Shown: positions 1 to 58,189 of the stretch, in pieces
Layout of the letters: each line of letters opens with the position of its first letter
Numbering within the stretch: the stretch's first letter is position 1
Virus record (IMG/VR): IMGVR_UViG_3300020595_000028
Coordinates: 4,955 to 68,954 of that record
DNA from: a virus
Length of the DNA stretch: 64,000 nt
Direction: 5' to 3' (one strand)
The notes under the pieces: model-generated
What the model saw: the letters and a program-made list of their open reading frames with translations, nothing else
The model's database searches: none
What the model was told of the DNA's origin: nothing
Program-made: the position numbers and the translations under genes

Positions 1-3000
1 GGTCTTGAAGTTCAGGTATAGCCAGGAACTCAGGGTCGTTAACAGTACGTTTAGCGATTTCATCGTATAGACGTTGTTTCTTAGATGTCTGTAAAACGTT
101 AGACAACTCAGCTGACGCCCTATCACCAGTAGATAAAGAGATAATCTGCGCCCCAGAGGAACTAGCATCATTCTCAATCATCATCTTGGTTTTGTACTGT
201 CGAAGCTTTCTAACTTCAGCAGTAGTATAGAGTGTCTTATCTAAAGGTACTTTACCTTCCATGTGTCGGTGTATACGAGTATACTCTAACGCAAGACGAG
301 CAAGCTTGCCCACCTCAACATCCTCTGTAGCAGCTACAAGGGAGTTAGATAGGAACTCTTTGATACGTCTGTCTGGCTGAGTAGTACTCATCATCAGGTT
401 GCCAATTTCTAGAAGGTTCTTTTCTTCAGCTTTAAAAGCATTGAGACGACCTTTAACAGTCAGAGTGTCTAGGGGGCTACCAATCAAGGCACCAATCTGT
501 GTCTGCAGTTCTTCTACAGCATCAGGGTTAATTGATACTGGTTTAGCTGTGTTTAAGAACGGACGGACTGCTTCACCCTTAGTAGGTGTAAGTAGTCCAC
601 GGTGATAAACACGACCACGGAAGTCAACAGAAACATCAACAGAGAAAGATTGATTACGTTGCCTATAGTACTTAGCTGTAGCTAAAACACCACGACCATC
701 ATTCCCACGAGACATGAATAGTTTCTTCATCTCGTTTACAGAGTCCCACTTAGCGGCTTCACCTCGTTTATCATTAAAGTATATAAGACGTTCTGTGAAG
801 TCAAAGAACTCAGGGTCAACCTCATACTTAACAGAGTTAGCATGGTTCATCATCTGAGCCATACCTCTATCAATCTGATTAGGGTCGTAGTCGGCATAAA
901 CCTTTTCTGAGACTACAGGCATCTTAGTCTTACGACCACGAGCATCATAGAACTCTTTAGAGCCAGCCCTAGCATAAACCTTATTACGATTATCTGCATA
1001 ACCAAAGCGTCGAGCAATACGAGCCTTTTCCGCAGCAATCTGTAGCTGTTTCATAGGGCCGTTAATGATGCTGATTTGACGAGTAACATTAACACCACGC
1101 AGGGACTTATCACCGATAGGTCTGCCTGTGTTCAAGTCTTTAGGAGAAGAGGTTCCAATGTCACGAATGACTGTAGTTCTAATCATGCCCTGTTTCTCAA
1201 GGGAGTTGATTATTCTACTACCGTCTTTGTGGAACTCTTTGAGTCCCTTCGAGCGGAATGGGTTTAAATCACCTAGTTCTTCGTCGAACATCTGACCAAT
1301 CTTAATAGCCAACATGTCATAATCAGCACCTTCAGCTGTAGCAATAGACTGCATAGCCTTGGAAGTAGCTTTAGTAACTTTGTCCTTGAGTGTTTCTTTT
1401 GCTGTCTTTCTTTTTCTAGCAAATAAAAACTCTCTATCAAGTAACTCTCGTTTAACGCCTCTATACTTGGCAATCTGTTCAGTAAACCAAGAGTCAGAAG
1501 GTGTCTTCTTTTCAAAAAGCTTTTCTAACTTACGCTTAGTCTTTACACCGGGGATTGCGGTAATGAGCTTTGCCTTTAGTTCTTTGGCAGAAGGATAGCG
1601 TTTAATAATAGGTTGCGTGTAAGCAGCAATAGGTGCCTTAACATTAAAATAGGCTTTGTTAGCCAGTTTAGCGCCGTAAGTCCCTTGCCAAGTCTCAATA
1701 TAGCGGTTATCAGCAATCTGAGAATCAATAAGTTCAGAGATTGTGTAGCGCTTATTCAGAATAAATACTTCAGGGTCATTAGCTAACTTAGTAGTTAGGC
1801 CACCGAATAACTTACCTCTATCCGCAGAACGGTTAAACATAAGTGTACCTAAGTCCTGAACAGAGTTCAAAGTAAACTTGCGGAATACAGAAGTAGGCTT
1901 GCCCCAAGGTTCACCAGAGTTATTAGAGCGTGTAAACGTTTGGCGTAACACATCAGTAACAACAGAACGCTGGTTGATAGAAACATCACGACCTAAGTCT
2001 TTAACAAATTTGTCGATGTACTTCTTTTGTTGACTTGTGAGTACAGTACTCTCAGCAACTTTAGCAAGACGCTCAGCTAGAATGTCAGGTTCTTGAATCT
2101 GAATATGACGGCCAGCACCACTAGTATAGTCAGCACCCTCTGCATTGAACACAGCACCTTCACGATTAGACTTAAATGAACGCCTACTGCCTTGCTTCTG
2201 AGACAAAGAGTTTCCTTTGAAGTCAGTCAAAGCAAGTGCCTGAGAGTTCTCAGCAGCATCGTTCTTAAAGTGCGCACGAAGGGCAGCAGTGTGAGCTTTA
2301 GAAGCCATTAACTCTTCAGGAGTAGAGAACCCTAGAGTAATGTTACTTTCGTTATCAGCTGTAGGGCGTTTAACAGTTGTGTTAGCACGACGCATTAGAC
2401 CACGAATAGACAAAGCTTTACCAGCAGGGGAAACAAACTCAGAGGCTTTTAGTTTTCCACGTTGGAAAAGAGAAGCTTGACGTTCACCACCTAGTTGTTT
2501 AATCTGTACATCTGTAGACTGACGACGTAGCCAGCTTGTGTAGTCTTTAATCTTTGAAGGTTGGCCTGTTAGTTCTGAAGGATTAATGTTCTTCAGGTTA
2601 CGAGCTTTAATGTTCTTAGAGTTAACTTGTTCTAGTTCTTCTTTACTCTTAACAACAGGCACCAAGGTAGAACGACAGTTCCAGTGTAAAGGGGGCTGAT
2701 AACGCTTGTCATCAATCTTATACACTTGGCCGTTATGATGAGTACAGATTGGGCTTGTCTTACCATCTAGGATGGCAGTGAACATGTAGCCAGAAAGTAC
2801 TTCAGCGTTAGCTTCCATAACTTGATTCATAGCATCTGTCTGTGTTGTAGTAATAGAGGTTCTAGTCAGTGTCCTAGCTTGGTGCTCAGTAATCTTAGTT
2901 GTCTTCAAAACATCTGCGATGATTTCATTCTGAGTTAAACCTTTAGCTAAACCGCCTTTAACTTTAGTCTGGATACGGACCAGTTCACCAGAGCCAATAT

Positions 3001-3373
3001 TCTTCATATTGCCTTTTAGTGTGCGTGAGCCTTTAATCTGTGGTCCAGTTATTTCTGCCAATAGCTCTTTAGTCTTTGGCTTTTGTGTTCTATAGAACTT
3101 CTTAATTTCAGAATCAAGATTGTTCTTATGAAAGACCTTCTGTGAGTTGGAGAACTCTGACAAACTCTTAGAAGTATGAGCTTGGAGTTCTTTAGTGAAG
3201 CGTGTTACTTCGGGTTTCACATTGGCTCGTATATCCCCTTTCAGGAGGTCTTTTAAATTATTTCTATGCTGTTTAAGGATTGTACGGTTGCCCTTCTGGA
3301 CACCATTTTCATATAGACGGACGTCGCCAGCATGGTCAACAATCCTGTCAAATATCTTTTCGTTAATAGACAT
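1..3373 (-). CDS. MuF/SPP1 gp7-like head morphogenesis domain fused to a T7-like single-subunit RNA polymerase (3'-truncated by window edge; >=1124 aa)
   Basis: Manually translated: ATG at 3373 after GGAGAG RBS, no in-frame stop down to base 2. N-terminal MuF motifs ARTLTRTS, FTAILDGKTSPIC, PPLHWNCRSTLVP (~2660-2790), WLRRQS..Q..LG. C-terminal RNAP motifs VDFRGRVY (605-628) and motif A NDASSSGAQIISLSTGD (122-172). Confidence 0.88.
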   Translation of the reverse strand, partial: MSINEKIFDRIVDHAGDVRLYENGVQKGNRTILKQHRNNLKDLLKGDIRANVKPEVTRFTKELQAHTSKSLSEFSNSQKVFHKNNLDSEIKKFYRTQKPKTKELLAEITGPQIKGSRTLKGNMKNIGSGELVRIQTKVKGGLAKGLTQNEIIADVLKTTKITEHQARTLTRTSITTTQTDAMNQVMEANAEVLSGYMFTAILDGKTSPICTHHNGQVYKIDDKRYQPPLHWNCRSTLVPVVKSKEELEQVNSKNIKARNLKNINPSELTGQPSKIKDYTSWLRRQSTDVQIKQLGGERQASLFQRGKLKASEFVSPAGKALSIRGLMRRANTTVKRPTADNESNITLGFSTPEELMASKAHTAALRAHFKNDAAENSQALALTDFKGNSLSQKQGSRRSFKSNREGAVFNAEGADYTSGAGRHIQIQEPDILAERLAKVAESTVLTSQQKKYIDKFVKDLGRDVSINQRSVVTDVLRQTFTRSNNSGEPWGKPTSVFRKFTLNSVQDLGTLMFNRSADRGKLFGGLTTKLANDPEVFILNKRYTISELIDSQIADNRYIETWQGTYGAKLANKAYFNVKAPIAAYTQPIIKRYPSAKELKAKLITAIPGVKTKRKLEKLFEKKTPSDSWFTEQIAKYRGVKRELLDREFLFARKRKTAKETLKDKVTKATSKAMQSIATAEGADYDMLAIKIGQMFDEELGDLNPFRSKGLKEFHKDGSRIINSLEKQGMIRTTVIRDIGTSSPKDLNTGRPIGDKSLRGVNVTRQISIINGPMKQLQIAAEKARIARRFGYADNRNKVYARAGSKEFYDARGRKTKMPVVSEKVYADYDPNQIDRGMAQMMNHANSVKYEVDPEFFDFTERLIYFNDKRGEAAKWDSVNEMKKLFMSRGNDGRGVLATAKYYRQRNQSFSVDVSVDFRGRVYHRGLLTPTKGEAVRPFLNTAKPVSINPDAVEELQTQIGALIGSPLDTLTVKGRLNAFKAEEKNLLEIGNLMMSTTQPDRRIKEFLSNSLVAATEDVEVGKLARLALEYTRIHRHMEGKVPLDKTLYTTAEVRKLRQYKTKMMIENDASSSGAQIISLSTGDRASAELSNVLQTSKKQRLYDEIAKRTVNDPEFLAIPELQD

Positions 3374-3412
3374 TAGTCTCTCCATTACTATACTTCGTGG
3401 ATGTAGGTGGAA

Positions 3413-3437
3413 GGCACCCCCGCCGAAGCGGGAGTCC
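3413..3437 (-). terminator. GC-rich UUCG hairpin between portal and MuF-RNAP gene (weak U-tract; attenuator or processing site)
   Basis: Minus strand GGACTCCCGC-TTCG-GCGGGGGTGCC. Confidence 0.45.
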
Positions 3438-3525
3438 TTTTATTTGGTGCTAATTAGAGAATTGAACTCTTCTTCTCTGTGGTATGACGCCTGTGATACC
3501 TTTGAGACCGCGAACCTGCGTTAGC

Positions 3526-5100
3526 TTATTCTTCGTCTAACTTAAGTTCATCTTCTTTTAGCTCTGGGTTAGCAACTAAAGGGTCAGTCTGAATCGCTTG
3601 GATAGCCTCTTCATCGTCGTAGTCAGCAGGTAGGAAGTCATTGTACTTCGCAATGTTGACAAACGTATCACGAGAAATAATACCACCTTGGTACCATTCA
3701 GATACAAGACGCATAGCACCTTCGCCACCAACAGTAGCTGCAAAGTCAGCAGAGAGTTGGAATTCGATGTCGTTACCTGTGTAGTCCGTGTCATACTTCC
3801 AGTTTATCATAAAGGCTAGAATCTCTTGCATAGTACCAGAAATCTTAGCGTTCATTGTACCTAACTGAGCAGTCTGAGAAGCGTTACGAATCTCTAGAGC
3901 AACACCTGAAGCGGCTTGTTCTGGAGACAACATGCGGATACCCATCTTGGCCATCTCTTCGACGGTAGATTGAATAGCACGGTCCATATCCGCTAAAGCC
4001 CCCGTAGGTGTTTCTAGCACAGTAATGGATTCGTCTTTGCGAACACGGAGCCAAGTACCAAGACCTGCGCCGACTAGTTCTTCAAACTCTTCGTCAGTCA
4101 TGTCAGACTGCACCACTGGTGTATAGGTGGCCGCACCGTATAGTAGGTGGTTACGACGAGACACTTTGTTGTAGAGTGATACTTCTCTGTCAATCAATGG
4201 CATAAGCACTGGCTCAACAGGCTCAAGTTGCCCATTCAAAGGGAACGCGGGAACGCGGTCCAGACGCTGACCAAACTTCATTGGGTATACTGTGTCATAC
4301 AACTGGAAGCCACCATCAGCGGAGTCTTCGTACTCTTGTTGAATAACACCGTTAAGTGCTTCTACTTCGTGAGAGCCATGAGACTTCTTGTAGTAGTCAA
4401 GAACCAAGAAACCCTGTTCATCAAGGTAGTGGTCACAAACAGTATCTACATAGTTAGGGTGCCAAGGATTATCATCGCTGTATTCTTCGCTGATATAACG
4501 AGTAGTCCAACGGCTAAGAGTCTTAACACGAGTAACTGGGTGAGTCTTAACCTGTACGTTAATAACATTCTCTGCTTTAATCAGAACAGGATAAGGAGAA
4601 ATAGTCATACGCTCTTCAGGAGTCATATTCTCTAGTTCATCGTCTGATACTGTTGGACGGTCAATGTAGACCCAAGCACGAGAAGTTTGTAGCTCTTCCC
4701 AGATAGCAGCATCCAAGAAGTTAAACAAAGAAGCACCATCAAGAGTAATATCCTTAGTAATCCAATCATAAGCATCTTCACTAAGTTCTTCAGGGAGAGT
4801 CAAGGTTGATGGTTTACGTAGCAAAGCACTAATCAGCACACGAGCATACTGAGTTGTTAGACCCGGAAGCTCTGCTTCTGATTTATAAAAGTCATACTGT
4901 GGTTGTGACATACTAGGAGAGAAGGGTAGTAGCAAGTTAGAGTAATCACGCTCGATATACTCATCATGTGCTTTAGCGTGGGCTTCACCCTGCAGTACTG
5001 CGCGAGCTTTCTTCCATAATGGTTTTAGTGACAAGTACGAAGCACTGGGGGTCTCTACACCACGCTTCTGTGTATTAGCAGCTGTTTTAACTAGCGACAT
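3526..5100 (-). CDS. Portal protein (DUF4055-like siphovirus portal)
   Basis: 524 aa; directly upstream of MuF; motifs SGVALEIRNASQTAQL and WYQGGIISRDTF typical of this portal family. Confidence 0.8.
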   Translation of the reverse strand: MSLVKTAANTQKRGVETPSASYLSLKPLWKKARAVLQGEAHAKAHDEYIERDYSNLLLPFSPSMSQPQYDFYKSEAELPGLTTQYARVLISALLRKPSTLTLPEELSEDAYDWITKDITLDGASLFNFLDAAIWEELQTSRAWVYIDRPTVSDDELENMTPEERMTISPYPVLIKAENVINVQVKTHPVTRVKTLSRWTTRYISEEYSDDNPWHPNYVDTVCDHYLDEQGFLVLDYYKKSHGSHEVEALNGVIQQEYEDSADGGFQLYDTVYPMKFGQRLDRVPAFPLNGQLEPVEPVLMPLIDREVSLYNKVSRRNHLLYGAATYTPVVQSDMTDEEFEELVGAGLGTWLRVRKDESITVLETPTGALADMDRAIQSTVEEMAKMGIRMLSPEQAASGVALEIRNASQTAQLGTMNAKISGTMQEILAFMINWKYDTDYTGNDIEFQLSADFAATVGGEGAMRLVSEWYQGGIISRDTFVNIAKYNDFLPADYDDEEAIQAIQTDPLVANPELKEDELKLDEE

Positions 5101-5234: not shown

Positions 5235-5253
5235 TCATTATTCCGCCCTATTT
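5235..5253 (-). promoter_or_regulatory. Class II phage promoter-like repeat AAT(A/G)GGGCGGAATAATGA, upstream of portal
   Basis: 14-nt core GGGCGGAATAATGA identical at 5235, 5346, 29272, 40196 and 50818, always upstream of minus-strand operons. Confidence 0.75.
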
Positions 5254-5261
5254 TTTCCGAT

Positions 5262-5340
5262 AAAAAGAAGGTAAGCCTGCTAGGTAATCCCAGCAGACTT
5301 TCTTGATTCGAGGACTGTCAGACTTGAGAGCCTGTCCCCT
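5262..5340 (-). ncRNA. Candidate ~80-nt two-hairpin small RNA between tandem class II promoters
   Basis: Begins just after promoter 5346. Stem1 GGGGAC/GTCCTC encloses AGGCT/AGTCT; stem2 AAGTCTGCTGGG-ATTA-CCTAGCAGGCTT is followed by a U-rich tail. Confidence 0.4.
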
Positions 5341-5345
5341 TATTA

Positions 5346-5364
5346 TCATTATTCCGCCCTATTT
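5346..5364 (-). promoter_or_regulatory. Class II phage promoter-like repeat, just after endolysin stop
   Basis: AAATAGGGCGGAATAATGAT. Confidence 0.75.
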
Positions 5365-25491: not shown

Positions 25492-25675
25492 GTTCTTTTT
25501 CTTTCTTATTGCAGGAGACTACAAACTCATATCTTGATTGTATAGAGTTCAAATAGTCAGTTGTTGTTTGTTGTAGTTGTTTACAAGCCTCTTCAGACTC
25601 AGTGGACATGGGATGCCAACCATCTTGGATAGTAGCTTCACCATTAATAATGAACAAGATAACAAGATACCACAT
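25469..25675 (-). CDS. Hypothetical protein
   Basis: 68 aa, two Cys, coupled to terL stop. Confidence 0.5.
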   Translation of the reverse strand: MWYLVILFIINGEATIQDGWHPMSTESEEACKQLQQTTTDYLNSIQSRYEFVVSCNKKEKEHVTIQPR

Positions 25676-27006
25676 TAGAAGCCGAAGCCTCTAGTTGTTA
25701 CCTTAGTACCACCTCGCACAGGGAATAAATACTCCACAGCATATCTTAGACCATCTGTCCAGTGTTCAACACCTTCTTTCTTACAGATAGTAGCTGTGTC
25801 AGGGTTACTCTCTACCCATGCGGTTCGTTCAATAGATTTAATAGTATTCACACAACGTGGATGAACATACATATCGATGTCCCCATTAGCGTTCTTGAAC
25901 TTCTTATTAATAGCAGCAACACTATCAATAATAGGAGGTGCCTTACTATGCGCTCTTGTCTGTATACCTTCAGCTTGTAGAATGCTAAAGTCTGTACGTC
26001 CAACAGCAGCAGAGGACTTCCTAGCCTTCCCACTAGGGTCAGGGTAAGAGATAATGCGGTGTCCACGATACTTGTCTGCCAGCGTCCTAGCTAGAGTCTC
26101 TGTATCTGGGTGTCCCTGCATCTCGTCTAGTATGTGTATCTGATTGCCTCTTAGGGCAAATACACAGGATGCCATTATGCCAACGTTAAAGTCGATAGCA
26201 ACATGAACATCTTCACCTGTCTCAAAAGTGGGTAGGTCTTTGTCGATATGCTCTTTACGGTTAAACGTATAGAACACAGTATTACCAGAGTCTTCGAAGC
26301 TAGCCGTATACTCTCTGGCAAATTTCAATGGGTCCAGCGTTAGCTTAACCCGCTCAATCTCATCATCATCGAGATAAGGAGAGTCTTGATAAGTGTAGTG
26401 ATAGCTCTTCCATTGGTTATCAGCATCCTGACGATTAAACATTTCATAGAAATAGTTGTAACCCATAGGTGTACTAATAATAAGAGCCTTCCCCGGTTTG
26501 GCATTATACTTGTCAGCGTTCTTCTTAGACCAACGAGTAGCAATACAAGGTTGAATAACTGATTCCCAAGATTCCTTGAGTGATGTACCAGCACCTTTCC
26601 AAGAGCATACCTCATCGGCTACTACGAAATACTGACCAGTACCACGCATACGTTCTGAAGCCTCATAAGACCAAATCTTTAGCTGTACATTGCCAGGAAA
26701 CCAGAAGGTTCCAGCTACTCGTGATGACTTAATAGCGTGTTCTTCCATACCTAACTGATAGGCTAGTAGGGGATAATAGATATCCACAGCTTGTGCGTAA
26801 GTAGGCGCGATGATTGCTACATTCTTGTTAGGTACGTCGTCATCTAACTCCATTAGCTCTTGTACAGCAATAACAGCAGCACAGGCAGCTAGGTAAGACT
26901 TACCAAAACCACGAGAAGCATTAACTACAGCATACCGTGTATCATCTTCTAAAAATAGGTCATGTATAATGTCTGACTGACCCTCATGGAGAATAACCTC
27001 ATCCAT
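25675..27006 (-). CDS. terL: Terminase large subunit
   Basis: ASRGFGKS Walker A, VVADE Walker B, IISTPMG, AIDFN nuclease, HWTDGLRY. Confidence 0.92.
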   Translation of the reverse strand: MDEVILHEGQSDIIHDLFLEDDTRYAVVNASRGFGKSYLAACAAVIAVQELMELDDDVPNKNVAIIAPTYAQAVDIYYPLLAYQLGMEEHAIKSSRVAGTFWFPGNVQLKIWSYEASERMRGTGQYFVVADEVCSWKGAGTSLKESWESVIQPCIATRWSKKNADKYNAKPGKALIISTPMGYNYFYEMFNRQDADNQWKSYHYTYQDSPYLDDDEIERVKLTLDPLKFAREYTASFEDSGNTVFYTFNRKEHIDKDLPTFETGEDVHVAIDFNVGIMASCVFALRGNQIHILDEMQGHPDTETLARTLADKYRGHRIISYPDPSGKARKSSAAVGRTDFSILQAEGIQTRAHSKAPPIIDSVAAINKKFKNANGDIDMYVHPRCVNTIKSIERTAWVESNPDTATICKKEGVEHWTDGLRYAVEYLFPVRGGTKVTTRGFGF

Positions 27007-47419: not shown

Positions 47420-48091
47420 TTATCCTCCTTTGACAGTGTTAACTAACCTCGTTGCATACCATTCAATTTTCTTAGCGTCTTGTTCCATCGCATCTTTCTT
47501 ACCGACACGAAGGGTGTACTTAAGTATCTGACCTACAAGGTGTGCCTCTACGCCACTTAGGTGAGCAAGAGCCTTGTCACAAAGGTCCATATATTCGATA
47601 CCGTTAGGGTAGGCAGAGTAGTCTTCTTTGGAGAAGAGCTTGTAGTGTTTAGGGTTGATGATGGCCTCTTGTAGTGCTGCCTCCATATCAGAGAAGTCAC
47701 CGTGGAAGTCTGGCTTGTCGTCCGCTTCTTTGTAGCTTCTTGTCATAAAGTCTCCGTGGCTTTCCTGTGGTTCTACAACTTCCATGCCATCTGCTTCTTG
47801 TGCAATACGTCCGAGAATACGGTTCTTAAACATTTCTTCTTCCTCATCTGCTTCTTGCTGTTCGTTATATCGTAGGTTCATAAGATGTTCTGACCAACGC
47901 TGTATACCTTCAATATCGGTAATGTAGCGTAAAGCGCCAATATCGTTGTCTATTACTACAATTTCAACAAAGCCTAGTGACTTTCCATGATGAAACAAGT
48001 CGATAGCTTCTTGCCAGTTAGTAGTGTCGGAGGCGCATAGCCATTGGCTATAATCATCAAATACGGTGATTGTGTATTTGTAAGTTTCCAT
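47420..48091 (-). CDS. DUF3310 / T7 gp1.7-like C-terminal domain protein
   Basis: INPKHY, KY..R.GKKD...QD.KK..WY. Confidence 0.7.
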   Translation of the reverse strand: METYKYTITVFDDYSQWLCASDTTNWQEAIDLFHHGKSLGFVEIVVIDNDIGALRYITDIEGIQRWSEHLMNLRYNEQQEADEEEEMFKNRILGRIAQEADGMEVVEPQESHGDFMTRSYKEADDKPDFHGDFSDMEAALQEAIINPKHYKLFSKEDYSAYPNGIEYMDLCDKALAHLSGVEAHLVGQILKYTLRVGKKDAMEQDAKKIEWYATRLVNTVKGG

Positions 48092-48453: not shown

Positions 48454-48465
48454 TAGTAATGCTCC

Positions 48466-51034: not shown

Positions 51035-53278
51035 TTAGGCAAAGGCGAAGTCGGATTGGATGATTTCTGAGACATCAAGATTTCCTTTTTCTGGGATTAA
51101 GTGTGCGGATTGCATCTGTTCAAAGATGTGTTCCAAGGGGTTTTTGTCGTATAGCTCTACAAAGTGCCTACGCACATCATAGAACGCTTGTTCCATGTTA
51201 CCAGCGTGACAACCGAAAGAGTCATGCACAACAGTAACAGGATAGTCTGTATCGTGGATAAACATAGACAAGTGTACTGCATCTAAGCTATGAACGATAT
51301 TAGGTGGTGCTGACTGTGTTTGTTTGTCTTTATTAAGTGTAGCATTTTCCCACAGAGTAAACTCTAGCTCCATGCGTACACCATTGTGTTTTAGCTTAAC
51401 AGTCTTATTAACACCCTTGCGATAGGCATGAACAAAAGGTAAACCCGTGATTATCTGGCGGAATGCGATAGGCTTGCCTGTAAAGACCTCGCCATCTTCG
51501 TCGTGCCACTCACGGTTATTCTCGTGTTCACCTAGAGCCTCAAACATACGCAGCATCTTAGCTGGACCTTCAAGCTCTCTATAGCAAGTCTCGTAAATCA
51601 TGTCGCCAAGATAGGCAGACCACGACTTGTGCTTATCTCGTAAGTAGGTTGAGATGTCGCGTGTATCATCGTGTACTTGTTCTACCATACCGTATTTAAC
51701 GGCACCGTAGCCTAGTGTCATAACGGGGCGCTTAACAGTCTTGCGCCATGTCTTAGGGTTCTTAATGTTGTACCAGTAGAGTGGTGCAAACTTCTTTAGA
51801 GCGTCTCGTTTAGCATTACCGAAAGCACTACGCCTTTGGATGGCCTGAGAGAACAACTCTGAACGAGAATTAACAGAGTGTTTATTTACCGATTGTTCCA
51901 ATGCTACGAAGTCATCATATAGTTCTTTAAATGCTTCGGCATTGCCCTCTTCTTCAAGAAGCTTTTCTGCATCAACGTTGACTTGCCCAATTACTTTGTC
52001 TGCAATAAACATGTATACATCACCTGGAAGGTCTTGTGGGACTAAGTTAACCAGTGGTGCTACAAGCTCATCTTTAGACATGGCGACTAGGTGTTGGACG
52101 CCGTTGTTAGAACCGTCAATGTAGATAGGTAGGCATGATGGGAAGTCTTCTGTGTTGTTACCTTCTCCAACCCAATCCTGTAGTAGTTTTAGTTCGTTGC
52201 AACATGCAAGGAAACAGAAAGGTTTGTCTGCATCCATCCAGTCGTCATTAACAATAGGGTCATTGACATAACTTATAATCTTGTCAAAGTTATCTTGAAC
52301 CCAAGTAGCACGGTCATCAAGCGAGACTTTGTCGTTGCCCCACATATTAGCCGTGTGTACTGATAGCCAGTAGTAACCGTTGTCTCCTAGAGGTATGGGC
52401 GCGTCGAGCAGTAGAAGCCCTTTGGCGTTGTCTGAGGATTGTTCATGTAGAAACGCAGTGTTAGGGTATATGCGACCACGAAAGTCAACATTATACAGAT
52501 GATAGAAAGCATTATTCAAGTTCCTTTCTGCTAACTTTTCGATAGCTCTTGCTTCGATTTCTAGTGATGCACGTTTGGTAGGGTCTACTTCTTTCTTAAA
52601 CTTAAAGGGTGTTTTCTTAGAAGTTAAGAAAGTACATTGTTTAAATACATCAAACACAAAGGGGTTAATGCTCCAACCTGTCTTGTTTAGTTTGTTCAAG
52701 GTTTCAATTAAGTACTCAGTACCCCCTTCTTTACAAGCAGCAATAGCATCTTCGTGGGGGGCTTTTTTAATAAGGGTGTATCCGCTCTCATGGTAGTATT
52801 TCCCAACAACCCAATCAGCAGGAGCTACGGGTGCAGGGAACATTTCGGTGCTGTCGTCCTCAATAGACTCCATCACGTTGTTTAAGGCTTCAGCATCTTC
52901 AACTCGAACATGGTAGGACGAGTGCTTGCTTAGTTTTCCGTTCTTCTTCTTCTTACGCTTCTTAACGATTGATACTATGTTGGTGTCGATGTAGGCTAAG
53001 AATATAAACCAACCGAGGTGGATTGCGTCTAATTCGTTAAACCTTAGTTTGTACTTTCTATTTATACTATTACCAACCGACGATAGAATGTTTGTTAATT
53101 CAGACATAACTTCGATTTTAGTAAGGATGTGTCCGTAGGTAAAACTTATCATCTCTTGGGGGTCTTTGTCGAACAAAGGCCAAGGGGTGTTACGCTTGTC
53201 AGGCTTCTCACCCTTTAAGTCCAGTAGATAACCTTGTCGTTCTTTAATGTTATCACAGAGGGTTCCCATCGCGTTCAT
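51035..53278 (-). CDS. T7-like single-subunit DNA-directed RNA polymerase
   Basis: DFRGRIY, DGSNNGVQH (motif A), RKTVKRPVMTLGYG (motif B), PNIVHSLDA, VHDSFG (motif C), C-terminal DFAFA as in T7. Confidence 0.95.
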   Translation of the reverse strand: MNAMGTLCDNIKERQGYLLDLKGEKPDKRNTPWPLFDKDPQEMISFTYGHILTKIEVMSELTNILSSVGNSINRKYKLRFNELDAIHLGWFIFLAYIDTNIVSIVKKRKKKKNGKLSKHSSYHVRVEDAEALNNVMESIEDDSTEMFPAPVAPADWVVGKYYHESGYTLIKKAPHEDAIAACKEGGTEYLIETLNKLNKTGWSINPFVFDVFKQCTFLTSKKTPFKFKKEVDPTKRASLEIEARAIEKLAERNLNNAFYHLYNVDFRGRIYPNTAFLHEQSSDNAKGLLLLDAPIPLGDNGYYWLSVHTANMWGNDKVSLDDRATWVQDNFDKIISYVNDPIVNDDWMDADKPFCFLACCNELKLLQDWVGEGNNTEDFPSCLPIYIDGSNNGVQHLVAMSKDELVAPLVNLVPQDLPGDVYMFIADKVIGQVNVDAEKLLEEEGNAEAFKELYDDFVALEQSVNKHSVNSRSELFSQAIQRRSAFGNAKRDALKKFAPLYWYNIKNPKTWRKTVKRPVMTLGYGAVKYGMVEQVHDDTRDISTYLRDKHKSWSAYLGDMIYETCYRELEGPAKMLRMFEALGEHENNREWHDEDGEVFTGKPIAFRQIITGLPFVHAYRKGVNKTVKLKHNGVRMELEFTLWENATLNKDKQTQSAPPNIVHSLDAVHLSMFIHDTDYPVTVVHDSFGCHAGNMEQAFYDVRRHFVELYDKNPLEHIFEQMQSAHLIPEKGNLDVSEIIQSDFAFA

Positions 53279-53483: not shown

Positions 53484-53497
53484 GATTGGGGGGGGGG

Positions 53498-54832: not shown

Positions 54833-54856
54833 AGTTAGTCCTTTCAAGACTTTGAT

Positions 54857-54873
54857 TTCTTCGTTATAGAGGG
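54857..54873 (-). promoter_or_regulatory. Class I (early) promoter-like repeat CCCTCTATAACGAAGAA
   Basis: Identical at 54857, 56131 and 58099; each about 20-25 nt upstream of a start codon. Confidence 0.7.
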
Positions 54874-54889
54874 TTAGTTCTTCTCAGTC

Positions 54890-55264
54890 TTACCAGTCAT
54901 CACCTAGAGTGATTTGGTTGCTGTTTTTCGATTTGGTGTTTGCTATTTGAGCACGAAGTAGTTCAAGCTCAAGTTGTTCTCTTTCAAGCTGAATTTCCTG
55001 ACGCTTAATAGAGATGTCATACAGGCGGTTACAGTCTACTTTGCGTAGCTTCTTTTTACCTAATTGTATTTTATAGGTTGCCGACAAGGTTCCTTCATTT
55101 GTAGCAGTGTTAATGCTAGTTCCGAATTCCATTGTACGACCTGTGTCTTCGTTTTGTGAACAACCAGCACCGTTGCTAGTTTGGACATTGTAGCTATTTG
55201 CGGACGCCATTGATGATAAGGCGACTACAGACAATACTGATAATGCTAGGCTTACTTTCTTCAT
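54890..55264 (-). CDS. Secreted protein with coiled-coil C-terminus
   Basis: Signal peptide, C...C pair, heptads. Confidence 0.6.
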   Translation of the reverse strand: MKKVSLALSVLSVVALSSMASANSYNVQTSNGAGCSQNEDTGRTMEFGTSINTATNEGTLSATYKIQLGKKKLRKVDCNRLYDISIKRQEIQLEREQLELELLRAQIANTKSKNSNQITLGDDW

Positions 55265-55580
55265 AACCAACTCCTATTAGTTTTGAACATACAAGAAGCT
55301 TTCTTTGTCCTACAGACTTAAAGTCTATTGATACTTGCTTCTTGCTTTTGGGTTTCATTTTATAAGTTTCTTTAGAAGTCCTCCAACCATCAGCTGGAGA
55401 ACCATCTTTGTTTAGCACATAGACTTCCATAGTTATTGGGAAGCCATAATGGTTCTCTAGCTCGTAAGTCTTCGTATAGACCGGAGCAGGAGCATATTCA
55501 GTCTCAAACCCCGGCGACATAGAGTGCGCCGAGGAGAGAGCAGGTAACAGCAGCAGTACCATAGCTACAATATACTTCAT
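55194..55580 (-). CDS. Secreted Ig-fold/pilus-chaperone-like protein (tentative)
   Basis: Signal peptide then AH.M.P, L.N, beta-strand pattern, terminal Cys pair. Confidence 0.45.
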   Translation of the reverse strand: MKYIVAMVLLLLPALSSAHSMSPGFETEYAPAPVYTKTYELENHYGFPITMEVYVLNKDGSPADGWRTSKETYKMKPKSKKQVSIDFKSVGQRKLLVCSKLIGVGYEESKPSIISIVCSRLIINGVRK

Positions 55581-55581
55581 A

Positions 55582-56106
55582 TTACTGTAGGCAAGTTACT
55601 GTGTGATTGATTTTGTAATCCGTGTCGTCGGTGATGTTTAGTGTTTCATCTTCTGTCATAGTAGCTTTACCGCCAATTGAGAAGGTTACTTTAGTAACAC
55701 CGTTGCCGTTTTTCTTTAGATTACCAGCTGTCAGGCTGTTTGAGTTCCGGTTAGTAGTAGCATCATTCTTGCCTTTAACACTGATAGTAGACTGTGGAAG
55801 ATAGTTAACAACTACATCCGCTACATCTGTGTTGTTAGTAGTGCGTAGCTTGTTGTCAGACTCAACCTTTACATTGTTAGTATTACGAACCTTAAGAACA
55901 ACAACCGCGTTAGAAGTTGTATTCCAAGTCATAGTAGCATCGTCATAGGACATTGTGCCTGCTTGGTTCTTTTTAAACTGGCAGTCGCCAGAGCCGTGAA
56001 CTACACCAGAGTCGCCACCCCAAGTGGCAGTTCCTGAACCGTTGTTAGCGAAAGAAGCAGTAGCAGTTACAGAAGCGATGATAGCGGAGATTACGAGAGT
56101 TTTCAT
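55582..56106 (-). CDS. Secreted pilin-like beta protein (tentative)
   Basis: Signal peptide, G.V...C.F, G.M, Thr/Asn-rich, C-terminal TVTC. Confidence 0.45.
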   Translation of the reverse strand: MKTLVISAIIASVTATASFANNGSGTATWGGDSGVVHGSGDCQFKKNQAGTMSYDDATMTWNTTSNAVVVLKVRNTNNVKVESDNKLRTTNNTDVADVVVNYLPQSTISVKGKNDATTNRNSNSLTAGNLKKNGNGVTKVTFSIGGKATMTEDETLNITDDTDYKINHTVTCLQ

Positions 56107-56130
56107 AGTTAGTCCTTTCAAGACTTTGTT

Positions 56131-56147
56131 TTCTTCGTTATAGAGGG
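56131..56147 (-). promoter_or_regulatory. Class I (early) promoter-like repeat
   Basis: CCCTCTATAACGAAGAA. Confidence 0.7.
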
Positions 56148-56161
56148 TAGTATTTCCCCAC

Positions 56162-56566
56162 TTATTTGTAGGGTGTTTCGTTTGTGTAGAATAGGTGATT
56201 ACCTATCTTACCGTCGTACTCGTAGTGTTTAGTCCAGAAGGGTGAGACCTCCACAGAGTGGTAGTGTGTGGCTGTTAAGCCCAGTTGATTAGTACTACCA
56301 TCCAAGACGTCAGAGGCTAGCTCTTTGATGCCTCTCCAGGCCTGTCTGTCTAAGTATGACATACGAGTTGGGTCGTCATGGATGCCGTCGTGAGTCCAAG
56401 AGAATTGGTTCTTCTCCCAGACAACTTCACAAACAGTATCAGGGTAGCGTTTGTCTGCTACTCTGTTCAGTGTTACTTCAGCCACAGCGAGTTGACCATC
56501 AGTAGTTTCGTGACGTGCTTCAAAGAACACGTTAAGTGCCAAGCACATTGTTGCTGTCATAATCAT
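56162..56566 (-). CDS. SleB-like cell wall hydrolase (Hydrolase_2)
   Basis: CLALNVFFEAR.E...GQLAVAEV.LNRV, YP.TVC.VV...QFSW, IGNH.FY. Confidence 0.88.
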   Translation of the reverse strand: MIMTATMCLALNVFFEARHETTDGQLAVAEVTLNRVADKRYPDTVCEVVWEKNQFSWTHDGIHDDPTRMSYLDRQAWRGIKELASDVLDGSTNQLGLTATHYHSVEVSPFWTKHYEYDGKIGNHLFYTNETPYK

Positions 56567-56733
56567 TGTTATTCTCCATTCAAGGTTTTTGTAAGTTCTT
56601 CTAGATAAGTTTCAACTATCTCAGAGTAGCGGACATCAATGCCTTCTTCCCCTTCGTCATTTAATTCTGCCTCTTCTCTAGCCCAACTTAGTAGGGTCTG
56701 GAAGGTTAGTTGTAGTAGTTCACGTTCACTCAT

Positions 56734-56985
56734 TTACAAGTCCTCCACATAGTTTTCCCAATACTCTGTTTCCATCATAATCGTAGCTAGATTGATTACA
56801 TCTGGGTCAGGCTGTATTTGGTCTGGGTCTAAGTCTTCATCCTTGTAATAGTAGAAGTCTTCGAACTTAGGCTCTTCATAGATTTCAAGACAAGTGCCTT
56901 GCTCGTCTTTATGCAATTCAGCTTCACCAGGAGATACTAGTTCAGCGTAGACTGCTCTTCCATTGATTTCTACTTCATATTCCAT
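56734..56985 (-). CDS. Acidic hypothetical protein
   Basis: ORF track. Confidence 0.5.
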   Translation of the reverse strand: MEYEVEINGRAVYAELVSPGEAELHKDEQGTCLEIYEEPKFEDFYYYKDEDLDPDQIQPDPDVINLATIMMETEYWENYVEDL

Positions 56986-57398
56986 TATTTGAGTACTCCA
57001 TGTTTCTTTTCGATGTGTTCAACGACTTGTTTTACAGTAATGTCGTTCCGAAGAGGTTTAACAATAGCTTTACCTTCTGGGCCTTTCATTCTGATTTCTT
57101 TAACAAGAGCATCTTTCAAGATAATGTCTCCGTCGTCATTCTCCCACGCTGTAATAGCATAGACAGGCTTTTGACACCACATAACCAAGCGGTCAAATAG
57201 TATCTGTTGGCCCTTAGTTATAGGTGAGCCTTTGCGTTTCACTTCTATAAGAATTAGTGCTTTACCTTTTACATCGTAGCAAGCATCGATGTCGGTGAAG
57301 CCACCAACACCTGAGCAGCCTTGAAAGATAATAGCACGATTGAAGTATTCACGATTGCGGATTACTTGTGTATCGGTAGATTTTGTTACGTATGTCAT
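56985..57398 (-). CDS. PD-(D/E)XK nuclease-like protein
   Basis: TDID...LIEVK...GQ. Confidence 0.65.
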   Translation of the reverse strand: MTYVTKSTDTQVIRNREYFNRAIIFQGCSGVGGFTDIDACYDVKGKALILIEVKRKGSPITKGQQILFDRLVMWCQKPVYAITAWENDDGDIILKDALVKEIRMKGPEGKAIVKPLRNDITVKQVVEHIEKKHGVLK

Positions 57399-57402
57399 TC
57401 TA

Positions 57403-57666
57403 TTATCCTTTCTTTTTTTCTGTTTGAGTGCCTACAAGGTTTGAAACTAGAGCAAGAGCATCATAGACAAAGAAGCCTACAACAGTTGCTGTAGCCATTC
57501 CGTTAGAGGGGTCGTGAACAAGCAGAGACATAGCGAGACAACCTGAGCCTAAAGTGGGGTAAGGTTTGGCTATCCAGTCTTGGTTAGTTATTGCGTGAAA
57601 GATGGCTGCGAGAAGTACTCTGTACATTACGCCTAAAAGTGCTAAGCCTATCATTGTGGTCTCCAT
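57403..57666 (-). CDS. Membrane protein
   Basis: Three hydrophobic segments. Confidence 0.5.
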   Translation of the reverse strand: METTMIGLALLGVMYRVLLAAIFHAITNQDWIAKPYPTLGSGCLAMSLLVHDPSNGMATATVVGFFVYDALALVSNLVGTQTEKKKG

Positions 57667-57696
57667 TTCTGGTTAAGTTTGCAAAGCCCGTACAAT

Positions 57697-57990
57697 TCAT
57701 ACGGGGTGGACAGTAGCTACCTCAACGAAGCAGCTAGCGCGGTTTTCAAAGTAGTCACGAGGGAGTACCCACTCAGCAAAAGTGCCGTGGATAGCATCTC
57801 CCTCACATACACCACGGTATGCGTTGAAGTGAGCTGGAAGTTCATCCATCTCGATTTCTACAACAGCGCCTTTAGAGTATTTAGCAGCGTTGTCGAAAGA
57901 GTCAGTCCAGTGAGTTACGTCACGAGTCTGTGTGTCGAGAGCTAGTTCATTAGCTTCACGAATTGTAGTGCCTCTGTAGAATTTAAACAT
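57697..57990 (-). CDS. Putative ADP-ribosyltransferase-fold protein
   Basis: FYRG, HWT.S...A..Y, VVEI, AEWVL (R-S-E-like arrangement). Confidence 0.5.
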   Translation of the reverse strand: MFKFYRGTTIREANELALDTQTRDVTHWTDSFDNAAKYSKGAVVEIEMDELPAHFNAYRGVCEGDAIHGTFAEWVLPRDYFENRASCFVEVATVHPV

Positions 57991-58098
57991 TGTGTTCTCC
58001 TTTTGGTTTGATTAGCTGATGTGTGCGTCGATTGTAGCGATTAGTAGTACTGTGATAAAGCCGATTCCAACATATAGCATGGTAGTCTCCTTTTGGGT

Positions 58099-58115
58099 TT
58101 CTTCGTTATAGAGGG
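58099..58115 (-). promoter_or_regulatory. Class I (early) promoter-like repeat, first after TMP terminator
   Basis: CCCTCTATAACGAAGAA. Confidence 0.7.
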
Positions 58116-58161: not shown

Positions 58162-58189
58162 AAAAAAGGCCACCCCCGAAGGGATGACC
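58162..58189 (-). terminator. Rho-independent terminator after tape measure gene
   Basis: Identical to the 50167 terminator (34-bp identity, 58156-58189 vs 50161-50194). Confidence 0.85.

What the first reader, a model, noticed from the sequence alone, without database searches (positions are those of the whole stretch)
1..3373. MuF head-morphogenesis protein fused to a second T7-like RNA polymerase: candidate virion-delivered RNAP
Seen: a stop-free minus-strand ORF missed by the track because it runs off the edge. It begins with a complete MuF/SPP1 gp7 domain (LDGKTSPIC, PPLHWNCRS) and later shows single-subunit RNAP motifs DFRGRVY (~aa 917) and motif A DASSSGAQ (~aa 1069). It sits in the canonical MuF slot right after the portal. 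Known: SPP1 gp7 is a low-copy portal- and DNA-associated head protein; MuF proteins are known to carry C-terminal toxin domains; N4 injects a T7-family virion RNAP, but as a separate giant protein. Inference: this siphovirus-type phage uses MuF as a packaging/injection tag for an RNAP, allowing host-independent immediate-early transcription. I do not know of a described example.
Basis: partly seen in the sequence, partly recalled or inferred. Interest (0 to 1): 0.95.

Follow-up and report, generated by a model that had tools for sequence, protein, structure and literature searches.

The report
Head-anchor protein fused to RNA polymerase
A long-tailed marine phage joins its only portal-associated minor head protein (MuF) to a complete, apparently active T7-type RNA polymerase, so it probably carries its own transcription enzyme in the capsid to switch on early genes before a second, ordinary phage polymerase takes over.

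Summary
The window cuts the gene. In the full 68,954-base record it is one stop-free ORF of 1483 aa, or 1479 aa from the likelier start at window 3373. It consists of a MuF/SPP1-gp7 domain, a roughly 170-aa conserved linker, and a whole T7-like single-subunit RNA polymerase. Motifs T/DxxGR, A, B and C are all present. The motif A and C aspartates and the motif B Lys/Tyr are invariant in 31 aligned relatives. The predicted fold matches T7 RNAP (Z about 29-31) better than N4 virion RNAP (Z about 18).

It is the genome's only MuF gene. It lies between portal and scaffold behind a late-type promoter motif. The phage also has a canonical 747-aa RNAP. The same fusion occurs in hundreds of uncultured phage contigs and in the cultured roseophages DSS3_VP1 and DSS3_PM1 (Naomviridae), where it is annotated only as a minor head protein.

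An 18-nt early-region motif is conserved as far as DSS3_VP1, as is the fused enzyme's putative specificity loop. The second motif and the stand-alone enzyme's loop are lineage-specific. This fits a relay from injected to stand-alone polymerase.

Virion packaging and injection remain untested. Ten full-text searches found no description. This scan already noted the architecture in other genomes.

The parts
1..3373 (-). MuF-RNAP fusion gene, the part inside the window. The ORF is also open from an ATG at 3385. It continues 1067 nt beyond the left edge, to G000:C1:3888.
   Evidence: Full ORF is 1483 aa (P0002), or 1479 aa from the ATG at 3373. Motif B (G000:C1:4884-4928) and motif C (G000:C1:4137-4154) lie outside the window.
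2285..3373 (-). MuF / SPP1 gp7-type head-morphogenesis domain (P0002 aa 5-367; Pfam core aa 138-241 = window 2663-2974)
   Evidence: Pfam Phage_Mu_F 58.7 bits, cut-off 29.6. phrog_241 head morphogenesis E 9.8e-54 over aa 5-367. It is the only PF04233 match in the genome.
1748..2260 (-). Family-conserved linker region (aa 376-546): a low-confidence stretch followed by a helical segment, of unknown role
   Evidence: Relatives align from their aa 376-400 onward. A2 has invariant residues here. AF2 gives pLDDT below 50 at model residues 28-47 and helices after. The ESM Atlas gave no usable hit.
2..1747 (-). In-window part of the T7-like RNAP module (aa 547-1128): N-terminal domain, T/DxxGR (window 611-625) and motif A DASSSGAQ (window 146-169)
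   Evidence: VIA-align places model residues 168-1103 on T7 RNAP residues 30-883, with Z 31.5 and 29.0. Foldseek finds T7 RNAP at E 2.2e-19. R925 and D1073 are invariant in 31 sequences.
3526..5100 (-). Portal protein gene, directly upstream
   Evidence: phrog_145 portal E 6.8e-52. A same-strand ORF of at least 430 aa lies directly upstream of the fusion in all 36 of 36 relatives' loci that have a full 2-kb upstream flank. Fifteen of these were aligned and are 69-92% identical to the window portal.
5235..5359 (-). Two copies of the class II motif GGGCGGAATAATGA (5235-5248, 5346-5359) at the head of the portal / MuF-RNAP / head operon
   Evidence: Five exact copies in the window against 0.19 expected. 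The others are at 29272, 40196 and 50818. Flanks are shown.
51035..53278 (-). Stand-alone canonical T7-like RNAP, 747 aa, ending in ...DFAFA
   Evidence: PF00940 258.9 bits. phrog_414 E 3.2e-123. Only 20% identity over 130 aa to the fused RNAP. C-terminus shown.
54856..58115 (-). Early block with three exact copies of the class I motif CCCTCTATAACGAAGAAA (58098-58115, 56130-56147, 54856-54873), each 15-25 nt before an RBS and ATG, upstream of the stand-alone RNAP gene
   Evidence: Three copies against 0.09 expected. Flanks. The exact 18-mer occurs in 7 other IMG/VR contigs. Its 15-nt core is at the same place in DSS3_VP1.
58168..58189 (-). Hairpin plus T-run terminator directly after the tape-measure stop, ahead of the first class I motif. 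An identical copy lies at 50173-50194.
   Evidence: 12... 9-pair stem, TTTTTTATCA tail. One search shows it is letter-identical in DSS3_VP1 and four IMG/VR loci.

Best explanation
The gene encodes a capsid-internal, portal-associated minor head protein (MuF) whose C-terminal cargo is a catalytically competent T7-type DNA-dependent RNA polymerase.

Proposed mechanism:
1. Late in infection the fusion is made from the portal/head operon, which follows class II motifs.
2. Its MuF part brings a few copies into the procapsid at the portal, as SPP1 gp7 does.
3. At the next infection it leaves the capsid with the DNA.
4. It transcribes the small early block marked by the class I motif (CCCTCTATAACGAAGAAA). 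This block starts right after the tape-measure terminator and leads into the gene for the stand-alone 747-aa RNAP.
5. The stand-alone RNAP then reads the class II motifs in front of the replication, portal/head and other modules.

Shown here: the architecture, intact and conserved catalytic motifs, the T7-like fold, the gene's position, uniqueness of MuF in the genome, co-occurrence with a second RNAP, the two motif classes and their different conservation.

Inferred: packaging, ejection, and which polymerase reads which motif.
For: **Architecture and catalytic competence**
- Both domains score above Pfam cut-offs in one 1483-aa ORF.
- In 31 aligned family members these residues are invariant: R925 (T/DxxGR), E1071 and D1073 (motif A), K1138, K1141, Y1149 and G1150 (motif B), D1375, and D1398 (motif C).
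- The AF2 model has pLDDT 83.2 and pTM 0.78.
- It matches T7 RNAP at Foldseek E 2.2e-19.
- VIA-align gives Z 31.5, and Z 29.0 with rmsd 2.9 over 517 residues. Model residues 173-1103 cover T7 residues 38-883.

**Link to the capsid**
- This is the only MuF gene in a record rated 100% complete.
- It lies between portal and scaffold/major head protein.
- Two class II motifs precede the portal, so the polymerase is made with the head proteins.
- The same gene order is found in DSS3_VP1.
- Iyer et al. 2017 (PMC5512222, passages read) describe MuF proteins as head components whose fused enzymatic domains are likely delivered into the host.

**Conservation of the fusion**
- 311 proteins match the RNAP part at E<=1e-3. 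Of the best 120, 99 carry both Pfam domains. Another 15 carry PF04233 and match the RNAP part at full coverage.
- All 28 of 28 full-length members of A1 have MuF.
- 579 IMG/VR stretches encode a relative.

**Two-polymerase set-up**
- The genome has a canonical RNAP scoring 258.9 bits.
- Of 17 relatives' contigs of at least 20 kb, 10 also carry a stand-alone RNAP. These include all 5 contigs rated at least 55% complete.
- DSS3_VP1 has both polymerases.

**Promoter logic**
- Class I occurs 3 times, only upstream of the stand-alone RNAP gene.
- Class II occurs 5 times, only downstream of it.
- The class I core TCTATAAYGAAGAAA sits at the same place (tape-measure stop, hairpin, motif, first small gene) in DSS3_VP1. 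That phage's fusion protein is only 45% identical.
- Class II is kept only in close relatives: G001 has 4 copies and G008 has 3, while G006, G007 and DSS3_VP1 have none.
- The fused RNAP's putative specificity-loop segment is better conserved than the enzyme as a whole (63% against 47% versus DSS3_PM1).
- The stand-alone RNAP's equivalent segment is worse conserved than that enzyme as a whole (37% against 47% versus DSS3_VP1; 33% against 54% versus G007).
- Sigma-70-like sites are not enriched in the early block: 11 found against 8.7 +/- 3.2 in shuffles.

**RNA-library contigs**
- Contigs from three marine metatranscriptome runs lie on the class I block and on the first class II unit.
Against: - No virion proteome, transcript 5' ends or enzymology exist for any member that I could see.
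- The class I motif contains TATAAC, which is TATAAT in DSS3_VP1. That is a good bacterial -10 hexamer, so host RNA polymerase could start the early block.
- A protein of about 165 kDa must pass a siphovirus tail tube, presumably unfolded.
- In split forms the catalytic C-terminal piece lacks a MuF tag. Examples are EBPR siphovirus 1 gp47 + HNH + gp49, and N-terminal pieces of 1115-1182 aa with C-terminal pieces of 327-331 aa.
- The loop-to-promoter assignment depends on positional homology to T7's specificity loop. That homology is recalled, not computed residue by residue.
- The RNA-library data are contigs, mostly from 90-99% similar relatives. They cannot show transcript starts or which enzyme made them.
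Confidence: 0.68

Rival explanations
1. Host RNA polymerase starts infection from the class I elements, used as sigma-70-type promoters with a TATAAC/TATAAT -10. The MuF-fused polymerase is still injected but does something else. It might pull the genome into the cell by transcription, prime replication, or read only a subset of genes.
For: Class I holds a near-consensus -10 hexamer. T7 itself relies on host RNAP for its early genes and on transcription for genome entry (established knowledge, recalled).
Against: The 18 nt are invariant in 3 of 3 window copies and in 10 further copies on 7 other contigs. The conserved flanks go well beyond a -10 hexamer and there is no TTGACA-like -35. None of the three sites is called by the sigma-70 scan, and the region shows no enrichment of such sites. 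The core is conserved between phages of presumably different hosts.
Confidence: 0.15
2. The fusion is not delivered. The RNAP acts late in the producing cell, either cleaved from MuF or tethered at the portal. It could serve as a late or packaging-coupled transcriptase or as a DNA-handling factor during head filling.
For: The gene is expressed with the late/head operon. A low-confidence, variable linker follows the MuF part and could be a cleavage site.
Against: A stand-alone RNAP already serves the class II units, which include the head operon. A polymerase made only when heads are assembled has little left to transcribe. The fusion to MuF is kept in all 28 of 28 full-length members down to about 20% identity, which argues that physical linkage to the capsid matters.
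Confidence: 0.1
3. The polymerase-like part is a non-catalytic DNA-binding or structural module that anchors the DNA end in the capsid, as SPP1 gp7 binds DNA.
For: Its sequence is very divergent from canonical RNAPs. PF00940 scores only 29.1 bits and there is no PDB hit by sequence.
Against: Both catalytic aspartates, the motif B Lys/Tyr and the T/DxxGR Arg are invariant across 31 sequences. The whole T7 fold, including the N-terminal domain, is retained.
Confidence: 0.04
4. Assembly chimera or read-through of two genes.
For: None beyond the window edge cutting the ORF.
Against: The same uninterrupted ORF occurs in two sequenced isolates, in 99 or more protein clusters and in IMG/VR contigs from many samples.
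Confidence: 0.01

Closest known systems
Coliphage N4 virion RNA polymerase gp50 and the N4 polymerase relay (Schitoviridae)
   Same: Both are single-subunit, T7-superfamily RNAPs made late, carried in the capsid and (here, proposed) injected to transcribe early genes. In both, other polymerases then take over. In both phages the early enzyme is far more divergent than the second one. N4 facts come from the abstracts of PMC4496689 and PMC13434306 seen in the listing.
   Different: N4 gp50 is a separate protein of about 3500 aa with its own N- and C-terminal injection and encapsidation regions in a podovirus. Here the polymerase is a 1483-aa protein tagged with MuF in a siphovirus. The fold is nearer T7 (Z 29-31) than N4 mini-vRNAP (Z 17.7). 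The candidate promoter has no hairpin, whereas N4 vRNAP uses hairpin promoters (recalled). Iyer et al. 2017 state that N4-like vRNAP modules occur only in N4-like (pro)phages.
MuF-effector fusions: MuF polymorphic toxins and polyvalent-protein-like MuF fusions
   Same: An N-terminal MuF head domain is used as a carrier for a C-terminal enzymatic cargo that is thought to enter the host with the DNA (PMC5512222 passages; PMC11806420 passage on MuF-RelA_SpoT).
   Different: The described cargos are toxins or small effectors such as RNases, 2H phosphoesterases, RelA/SpoT and ART. They are mostly in temperate phages and often have immunity genes. Here the cargo is a roughly 940-aa RNA polymerase in a lytic lineage. 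None of the 12 MuF relatives found in 185,579 species' genomes carries the RNAP part.
Thermus phage P23-45 tape-measure-fused virion RNAP
   Same: A virion RNAP is delivered as a fusion to a structural protein of a siphovirus. It transcribes pre-early genes, including the gene of a second, non-virion RNAP (abstract of PMC10770324, listing).
   Different: That enzyme is homologous to cellular (two-barrel) RNAPs and is fused to the tail tape measure. Here a T7-type enzyme is fused to the head protein MuF.
T7 RNA polymerase (Autographiviridae) and mitochondrial RNAPs
   Same: Closest fold over the whole enzyme (Z 27-31). Motifs T/DxxGR, A, B and C are shared.
   Different: Those enzymes are not virion proteins. 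The T7-type C-terminus ...FAFA is present in this phage's stand-alone RNAP but is replaced by a family-conserved ...DWYGIGP in the fused enzyme. Sequence similarity is marginal: PF00940 scores 29 bits and there is no PDB hit by phmmer.

Membership tests
Phage_Mu_F / SPP1 gp7 minor head protein family (PF04233) | Profile match above the curated threshold | tested here: met
   58.7 bits against a cut-off of 29.6, aa 138-241. phrog_241 head morphogenesis E 9.8e-54.
Phage_Mu_F / SPP1 gp7 minor head protein family (PF04233) | Gene placed directly after the portal gene in the head module | tested here: met
   The order is portal, this gene, scaffold, major head protein. DSS3_VP1 has the same order. 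So do 36 of 36 relatives' loci with a full upstream flank.
Phage_Mu_F / SPP1 gp7 minor head protein family (PF04233) | Low-copy presence in the capsid, bound to the portal, released with the DNA | not testable with these tools
   This needs virion mass spectrometry or cryo-EM. No such data were seen for any member.
T7-like single-subunit DNA-dependent RNA polymerase (PF00940) | Profile match above the curated threshold | tested here: met
   29.1 bits against a cut-off of 22, aa 1056-1443. 26 of 31 aligned members match at E<=0.001.
T7-like single-subunit DNA-dependent RNA polymerase (PF00940) | Catalytic motifs: T/DxxGR, motif A Asp, motif B Lys...Tyr-Gly, motif C His-Asp | tested here: met
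   DFRGR 921-925, D1073, K1138/K1141/Y1149/G1150 and H1397-D1398 are present. R925, D1073, K1138, K1141, Y1149, G1150 and D1398 are invariant in 31 sequences. Motif names and their T7 counterparts are recalled.
T7-like single-subunit DNA-dependent RNA polymerase (PF00940) | Whole-enzyme fold including the N-terminal domain | tested here: met
   VIA-align gives Z 31.5 (8dh5_M), and Z 29.0 with rmsd 2.9 over 517 residues (1s77_D). Model residues 173-1103 cover T7 residues 38-883.
T7-like single-subunit DNA-dependent RNA polymerase (PF00940) | Promoter-specific RNA synthesis | not testable with these tools
   Only candidate promoters are available.
N4-like virion RNA polymerase (Schitoviridae gp50) | Giant (about 3500 aa) protein with flanking injection and encapsidation regions | tested here: not met
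   The protein is 1483 aa. The N-terminus is MuF and nothing follows motif C except about 85 aa.
N4-like virion RNA polymerase (Schitoviridae gp50) | Polymerase domain closest to N4 mini-vRNAP | tested here: not met
   2po4 scores Z 17.7 and 3c46_A scores Z 17.9, against Z 29-31 for T7 RNAP. phrog_2166 gives only E 8.2e-5 over aa 846-932.
N4-like virion RNA polymerase (Schitoviridae gp50) | Hairpin-form early promoters | tested here: not met
   The three class I elements fold no better than shuffles as single-stranded DNA, with z -0.14, -0.63 and 0.02. That N4 uses hairpin promoters is recalled.
MuF polymorphic toxins | C-terminal toxin domain with adjacent immunity gene, usually in prophages | tested here: not met
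   The cargo is an RNAP. The next gene is the scaffold. No prophage copy of the fusion was found in genome contigs.

The most novel reading that the evidence does not exclude
A large, globally distributed lineage of long-tailed phages, including the cultured Naomviridae, runs a transcription programme that never needs host RNA polymerase. A T7-type polymerase rides in the capsid as the cargo of the MuF head protein and is ejected with the DNA. It fires from a roughly 35-nt promoter conserved across the whole lineage and switches on a second, lineage-tuned phage polymerase. This would be a third, independent invention of a virion RNA polymerase, after N4 and the crAss/P23-45 type. It would also be the first case where MuF delivers an informational enzyme instead of a toxin.
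Probability: 0.55. Interest if true: 0.85.

Novelty: new variant of a known kind. Interest (0 to 1): 0.77.

Why it matters
Virion-delivered RNA polymerases are known from few phage groups, and each has taught much about genome entry and host takeover. This case would show that the common MuF 'cargo slot' can carry a whole transcription enzyme. It would explain how an abundant marine and freshwater phage lineage starts infection. It would also supply two compact RNAP/promoter pairs, one conserved and one lineage-specific, of possible use as orthogonal expression tools. The idea is directly testable because two isolates, DSS3_VP1 and DSS3_PM1 on Ruegeria pomeroyi, are in culture. Their published descriptions that I could read do not mention the polymerase.

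Tried and rejected
**Link to dU-DNA.** DSS3_VP1 and DSS3_PM1 replace dT by dU (PMC8323127, passages). I asked whether the virion RNAP goes with that, as in PBS/AR9-type phages. The window's genome has no dCMP/dCTP deaminase (PF00383) and no HD hydrolase (PF01966). Its DNA is held by 17 ordinary DNA runs. So no link is shown, and the idea was dropped as a general explanation.

No stable hairpin is predicted.

**Binding of the MuF part (aa 1-375) to the portal.** Complex prediction returned 'no answer' (score 0.00, controls not run). This counts neither for nor against binding.

**Solved relatives by sequence.** phmmer against the PDB gave 0 hits at E<=1. The fold search was needed.

**ESM Atlas for the linker (aa 340-546).** No usable hit.

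**tRNA or known RNA in the 140-nt portal/MuF spacer.** DSS3_VP1 has tRNA-Asn there. ARAGORN found 0 genes in the whole window. Rfam gave 0 matches at E<=1 in 3300-3600.

**Prophage copies and hosts.** 12 loci were found in genome contigs. All match only the MuF part (query residues <=343).

**RNA libraries.**
- Runs X18-X20 are contigs only, so no transcript starts could be read (table 6: none).
- The listed pieces leave the tape-measure gene (about 58.7-61.3 kb) and most of the stand-alone RNAP gene without cover. The DNA run X1 covers all 30 bins.

**Literature.** Ten full-text searches found no paper describing a MuF-RNAP fusion.
- PMC8323127 has 0 occurrences of 'RNA polymerase', 'RNAP' or 'minor head' in its main text.
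- PMC12697855 has 0.
- PMC12669031 has 0.
The annotation tables of PMC8323127 may name the domain or hold proteomics that I could not see.
- Subscription-only papers are not covered.

**Co-occurrence count.** I gave only the 17 contigs of at least 20 kb out of the 80 loci kept. The 7 without a stand-alone RNAP are fragments rated 30-48% complete.

**EBPR siphovirus 1.** This partial 54-kb record shows only the split fused form and no strong stand-alone RNAP.

Full report
**The observation**

The window holds only the first 1128 codons of a minus-strand ORF that runs off its left edge. The window is bases 4955-68954 of a 68,954-base virus record rated 100% complete. I fetched the missing DNA. 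The ORF is G000:C1 3888..8339, 1483 aa without a stop.

The ones it could not see are intact just beyond the edge:
- motif B, KAAKNQNMVAFYGAG, at aa 1138-1152
- the pre-C block, NGNHSNDA, at aa 1369-1376
- motif C, IHDAFF, at aa 1396-1401

Pfam scores Phage_Mu_F at 58.7 bits (cut-off 29.6) and RNA_pol PF00940 at 29.1 bits (cut-off 22) in the one protein. PHROGs gives 'head morphogenesis' over aa 5-367 (E 9.8e-54) and 'RNA polymerase' (phrog_414, E 1.1e-24).

It has a GGAGAG 5 nt upstream. Relatives are 1479 aa long. The Atlas record starts there.

**Anatomy**

The search over 1.84 billion cluster representatives used aa 380-1483 as query. It found only 129 proteins at E<=0.001, of which 54 were at E<=1e-30. 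The full-length hits (1400-2100 aa) align from their own residue 376-400 onward. So the family-specific module begins right after MuF.

An AlphaFold2 model of aa 380-1483, built on a 31-row alignment, has mean pLDDT 83.2 and pTM 0.78.
- Foldseek's best solved match is T7 RNAP (3e2e_A, E 2.2e-19).
- VIA-align gives T7 RNAP Z 31.5 (8dh5_M), and Z 29.0 with rmsd 2.9 over 517 residues (1s77_D). Model residues 173-1103 cover T7 residues 38-883.
- Yeast and human mitochondrial RNAPs score Z 26-28.
- N4 RNAP II scores Z 18.3 and N4 mini-vRNAP scores Z 17.7.

The protein therefore has three parts:
- MuF, about aa 1-370
- a conserved linker of about 170 aa, with a low-confidence stretch followed by helices
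- a complete T7-type polymerase, including its N-terminal domain, at aa 547-1483

Across 31 aligned members, down to about 20% identity, these residues never change: R925 of T/DxxGR, E1071 and D1073 of motif A, K1138/K1141/Y1149/G1150 of motif B, D1375, and D1398 of motif C. The family also keeps its own C-terminus...DWYGIGP. This evidence points to an active polymerase and not to a relic.

**Context**

All large genes are on the minus strand. In the direction of transcription the order is as follows:
- tape measure (58198-62886)
- a block of small genes
- stand-alone RNAP (51035-53278; PF00940 258.9 bits)
- DNA polymerase, primase-helicase and ribonucleotide reductase
- large terminase (25675-27006)
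- tail and fibre genes, then endolysin
- portal (3526-5100)
- the fusion, then scaffold, major head protein, adaptor and major tail protein, wrapping round to the tape measure

The fusion is the only PF04233 match in the genome. The two polymerases are not recent duplicates. BLASTP finds 20% identity over 130 aa at E 5e-4. The stand-alone enzyme ends in the T7-like ...DFAFA.

**Distribution**

Using the RNAP part as query, 311 proteins scored E<=0.001 among 8000 candidates scored. Of the best 120:
- 99 carry both PF04233 and PF00940
- 15 carry PF04233 alone yet match the RNAP part over its full length
- 6 carry PF00940 alone and are short (817-1180 aa)

A Pfam scan of alignment A1 found MuF in 28 of 31 rows. 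The three misses are my trimmed query and two fragments of about 800 aa. It found RNA_pol in 26 of 31 rows.

IMG/VR holds at least 579 stretches encoding a relative. One of the two search patterns is MuF-specific, so some may be plain MuF proteins. The 80 best were kept and most span residues 1-1483.

Among 50,697 phage records, only three cover at least 80% of the protein. They represent two phages: DSS3_PM1 (45.0% identity) and DSS3_VP1 (44.8%, present under two accessions). Both belong to Naomviridae, where the gene is annotated 'minor head protein-like protein' or 'head morphogenesis'.

EBPR siphovirus 1 has the gene split by an HNH endonuclease gene, as gp47, gp48 and gp49. Similar N- and C-terminal pieces recur among the representatives.

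In representative genomes of 185,579 bacterial and archaeal species, 12 loci match. All match only the MuF part. So the fusion belongs to a lytic, mostly uncultured lineage.

**A second polymerase goes with it**

I tested 17 relatives' contigs of at least 20 kb, chosen from the 80 loci kept. All 17 show the fused enzyme's weak PF00940 match. Ten also have a strong stand-alone RNAP (244-286 bits). These ten include all five contigs rated at least 55% complete. The seven without one are 30-48% complete. DSS3_VP1 has both.

**Candidate promoters**

Earlier notes on this window pointed to two repeated motifs, and I checked them.

*Class I.* CCCTCTATAACGAAGAAA occurs three times exactly, against 0.09 expected by chance. 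All copies are on the coding strand, in the small-gene block upstream of the stand-alone RNAP gene. Each lies 15-25 nt before an RBS and ATG.

*Class II.* GGGCGGAATAATGA occurs five times exactly, against 0.19 expected. All copies are downstream of that gene, and two are just before the portal.

*The first class I copy.* It follows a hairpin plus T-run terminator placed directly after the tape-measure stop.

*Class I in other phages.*
- The exact class I 18-mer occurs on seven other IMG/VR contigs, ten copies in all, usually preceded by an AAAAGTGGGGAAA-like block.
- Of five such contigs tested, the one long enough (47 kb) encodes the fusion at 79% identity. The other four are fragments of 8-15 kb.
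- DSS3_VP1's fusion protein is only 45% identical. It has the 15-nt core TCTATAATGAAGAAA once, 74 nt after its tape-measure stop and 18 nt before its first small gene. It also has a letter-identical copy of the 22-nt terminator hairpin.

*Class II in other phages.* It is found only in the two close relatives tested (4 and 3 copies). It is absent from the three distant ones, including DSS3_VP1.

*No N4-type hairpin.* The class I elements do not fold as hairpins (z -0.14, -0.63 and 0.02). The region has no excess of sigma-70-like sites (11 against 8.7 +/- 3.2), and none of those sites coincides with a class I copy.

From memory, the CTATA-purine-rich layout resembles the -5 to +6 part of T7/SP6-type promoters. 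This is a recollection and not a test.

**Which enzyme reads which motif**

Position gives one argument. The stand-alone enzyme cannot transcribe its own gene before it exists. Class I is the only repeated element ahead of that gene.

A second, independent argument comes from conservation. The beta-hairpin segment just before the NGNHxxD block is where T7 carries its specificity loop. That positional homology is recalled.

| Enzyme | Compared with | Loop segment identity | Overall identity |
|---|---|---|---|
| Fused RNAP | DSS3_PM1 | 63% | 47% (RNAP part) |
| Stand-alone RNAP | DSS3_VP1 | 37% | 47% |
| Stand-alone RNAP | G007 | 33% | 54% |

A conserved loop goes with the conserved class I motif. 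A variable loop goes with the lineage-specific class II motif. This correlation is suggestive, not proof.

**Expression hints**

Seventeen DNA runs of marine samples hold the early region. Three RNA-library runs hold small shares of it. When laid on window 48000-64000, their contigs lie on the class I block (about 53.3-58.1 kb) and on the first class II unit (about 50.1-51.2 kb). These are contigs, mostly 90-99% alike to the window. They show that relatives' early regions are present in RNA libraries and nothing more.

**Mechanism**

My best reading, at 0.68, is a polymerase relay begun by a capsid-borne enzyme.
1. The fusion is made with the head proteins.
2. Its MuF domain takes it into the procapsid at the portal. 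This rests on homology to SPP1 gp7 and the MuF-cargo fusions discussed by Iyer et al. 2017 (passages).
3. It is ejected with the DNA.
4. It starts transcription at class I.
5. The stand-alone RNAP then serves class II.

Steps 2-4 are inferred. The main rival, at 0.15, is that host RNA polymerase reads class I through its TATAAC/TATAAT hexamer.

**Comparison and novelty**

The design works like N4's virion RNAP but fails the membership tests for that family on size, domain set, closest fold and promoter form.

It shares its logic with two other systems:
- the tape-measure-fused virion RNAP of Thermus phage P23-45 (abstract), which uses a different polymerase fold and a different carrier
- MuF-toxin fusions, which use the same carrier with a different cargo

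Ten full-text searches found no description of a MuF-RNAP fusion. The three Naomviridae papers I could search do not contain 'RNA polymerase' in their main text. Supplements were closed and subscription journals are not covered.

This scan has already reported the same architecture in other genomes. My calls agree with those reports and add four points: the class I against class II conservation contrast, the loop analysis, the identical terminator, and the negative dU-DNA test.

I class it as a new variant of a known kind, with interest 0.77.

Noticed in passing
window 58168-58189 and 50173-50194 (minus); L097 5746-5767 (DSS3_VP1): A 22-nt hairpin (GGTCATCCCTTCGGGGGTGGCC) with a T-run occurs twice in the window. 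It is letter-identical after the tape-measure stop of roseophage DSS3_VP1 and in IMG/VR loci L009, L010 (twice), L011 and L014. The proteins of these phages are only about 45% identical. A generic terminator would not need this degree of conservation, so it may be a specific signal for a phage polymerase or an RNA-processing site.
   Followed up: partly
L006 4055-9428 (EBPR siphovirus 1 gp47-gp49); representatives P0136-P0145, P0150, P0159: The fused gene is repeatedly split between motif A and motif B/C. In EBPR siphovirus 1 the split is made by an HNH endonuclease gene. This leaves a catalytic C-terminal piece of about 330-430 aa without a MuF tag, reminiscent of the two-subunit N4 RNAP II.
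   Followed up: partly
window 3386-3525 (minus): The 140-nt spacer between portal and the fusion gene holds a GC-rich hairpin (CCCGC-TTCG-GCGGG) without a T-run. DSS3_VP1 has a tRNA-Asn at this spot, but here ARAGORN and Rfam find nothing. The hairpin could lower expression of the low-copy fusion protein.
   Followed up: partly
whole record G000: No dCMP/dCTP deaminase (PF00383) or HD hydrolase (PF01966) gene was found, unlike the dU-DNA roseophages of the same wider lineage. The phage DNA is present in many ordinary marine DNA libraries.
   Followed up: yes
window 50136-51203: The short unit made of a class II motif (50818), a 201-aa gene (50216-50821) and the identical hairpin (50173-50194) is among the stretches best covered by contigs of the RNA-library runs X18 and X20.
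   Followed up: no
window 53904-54348: Tandem, imperfect 9-12-nt periodic repeats (GCA GCA TCx units on the plus strand) lie inside two small early ORFs. They correspond to the Ala-rich mini-genes noted earlier on this window.
   Followed up: no
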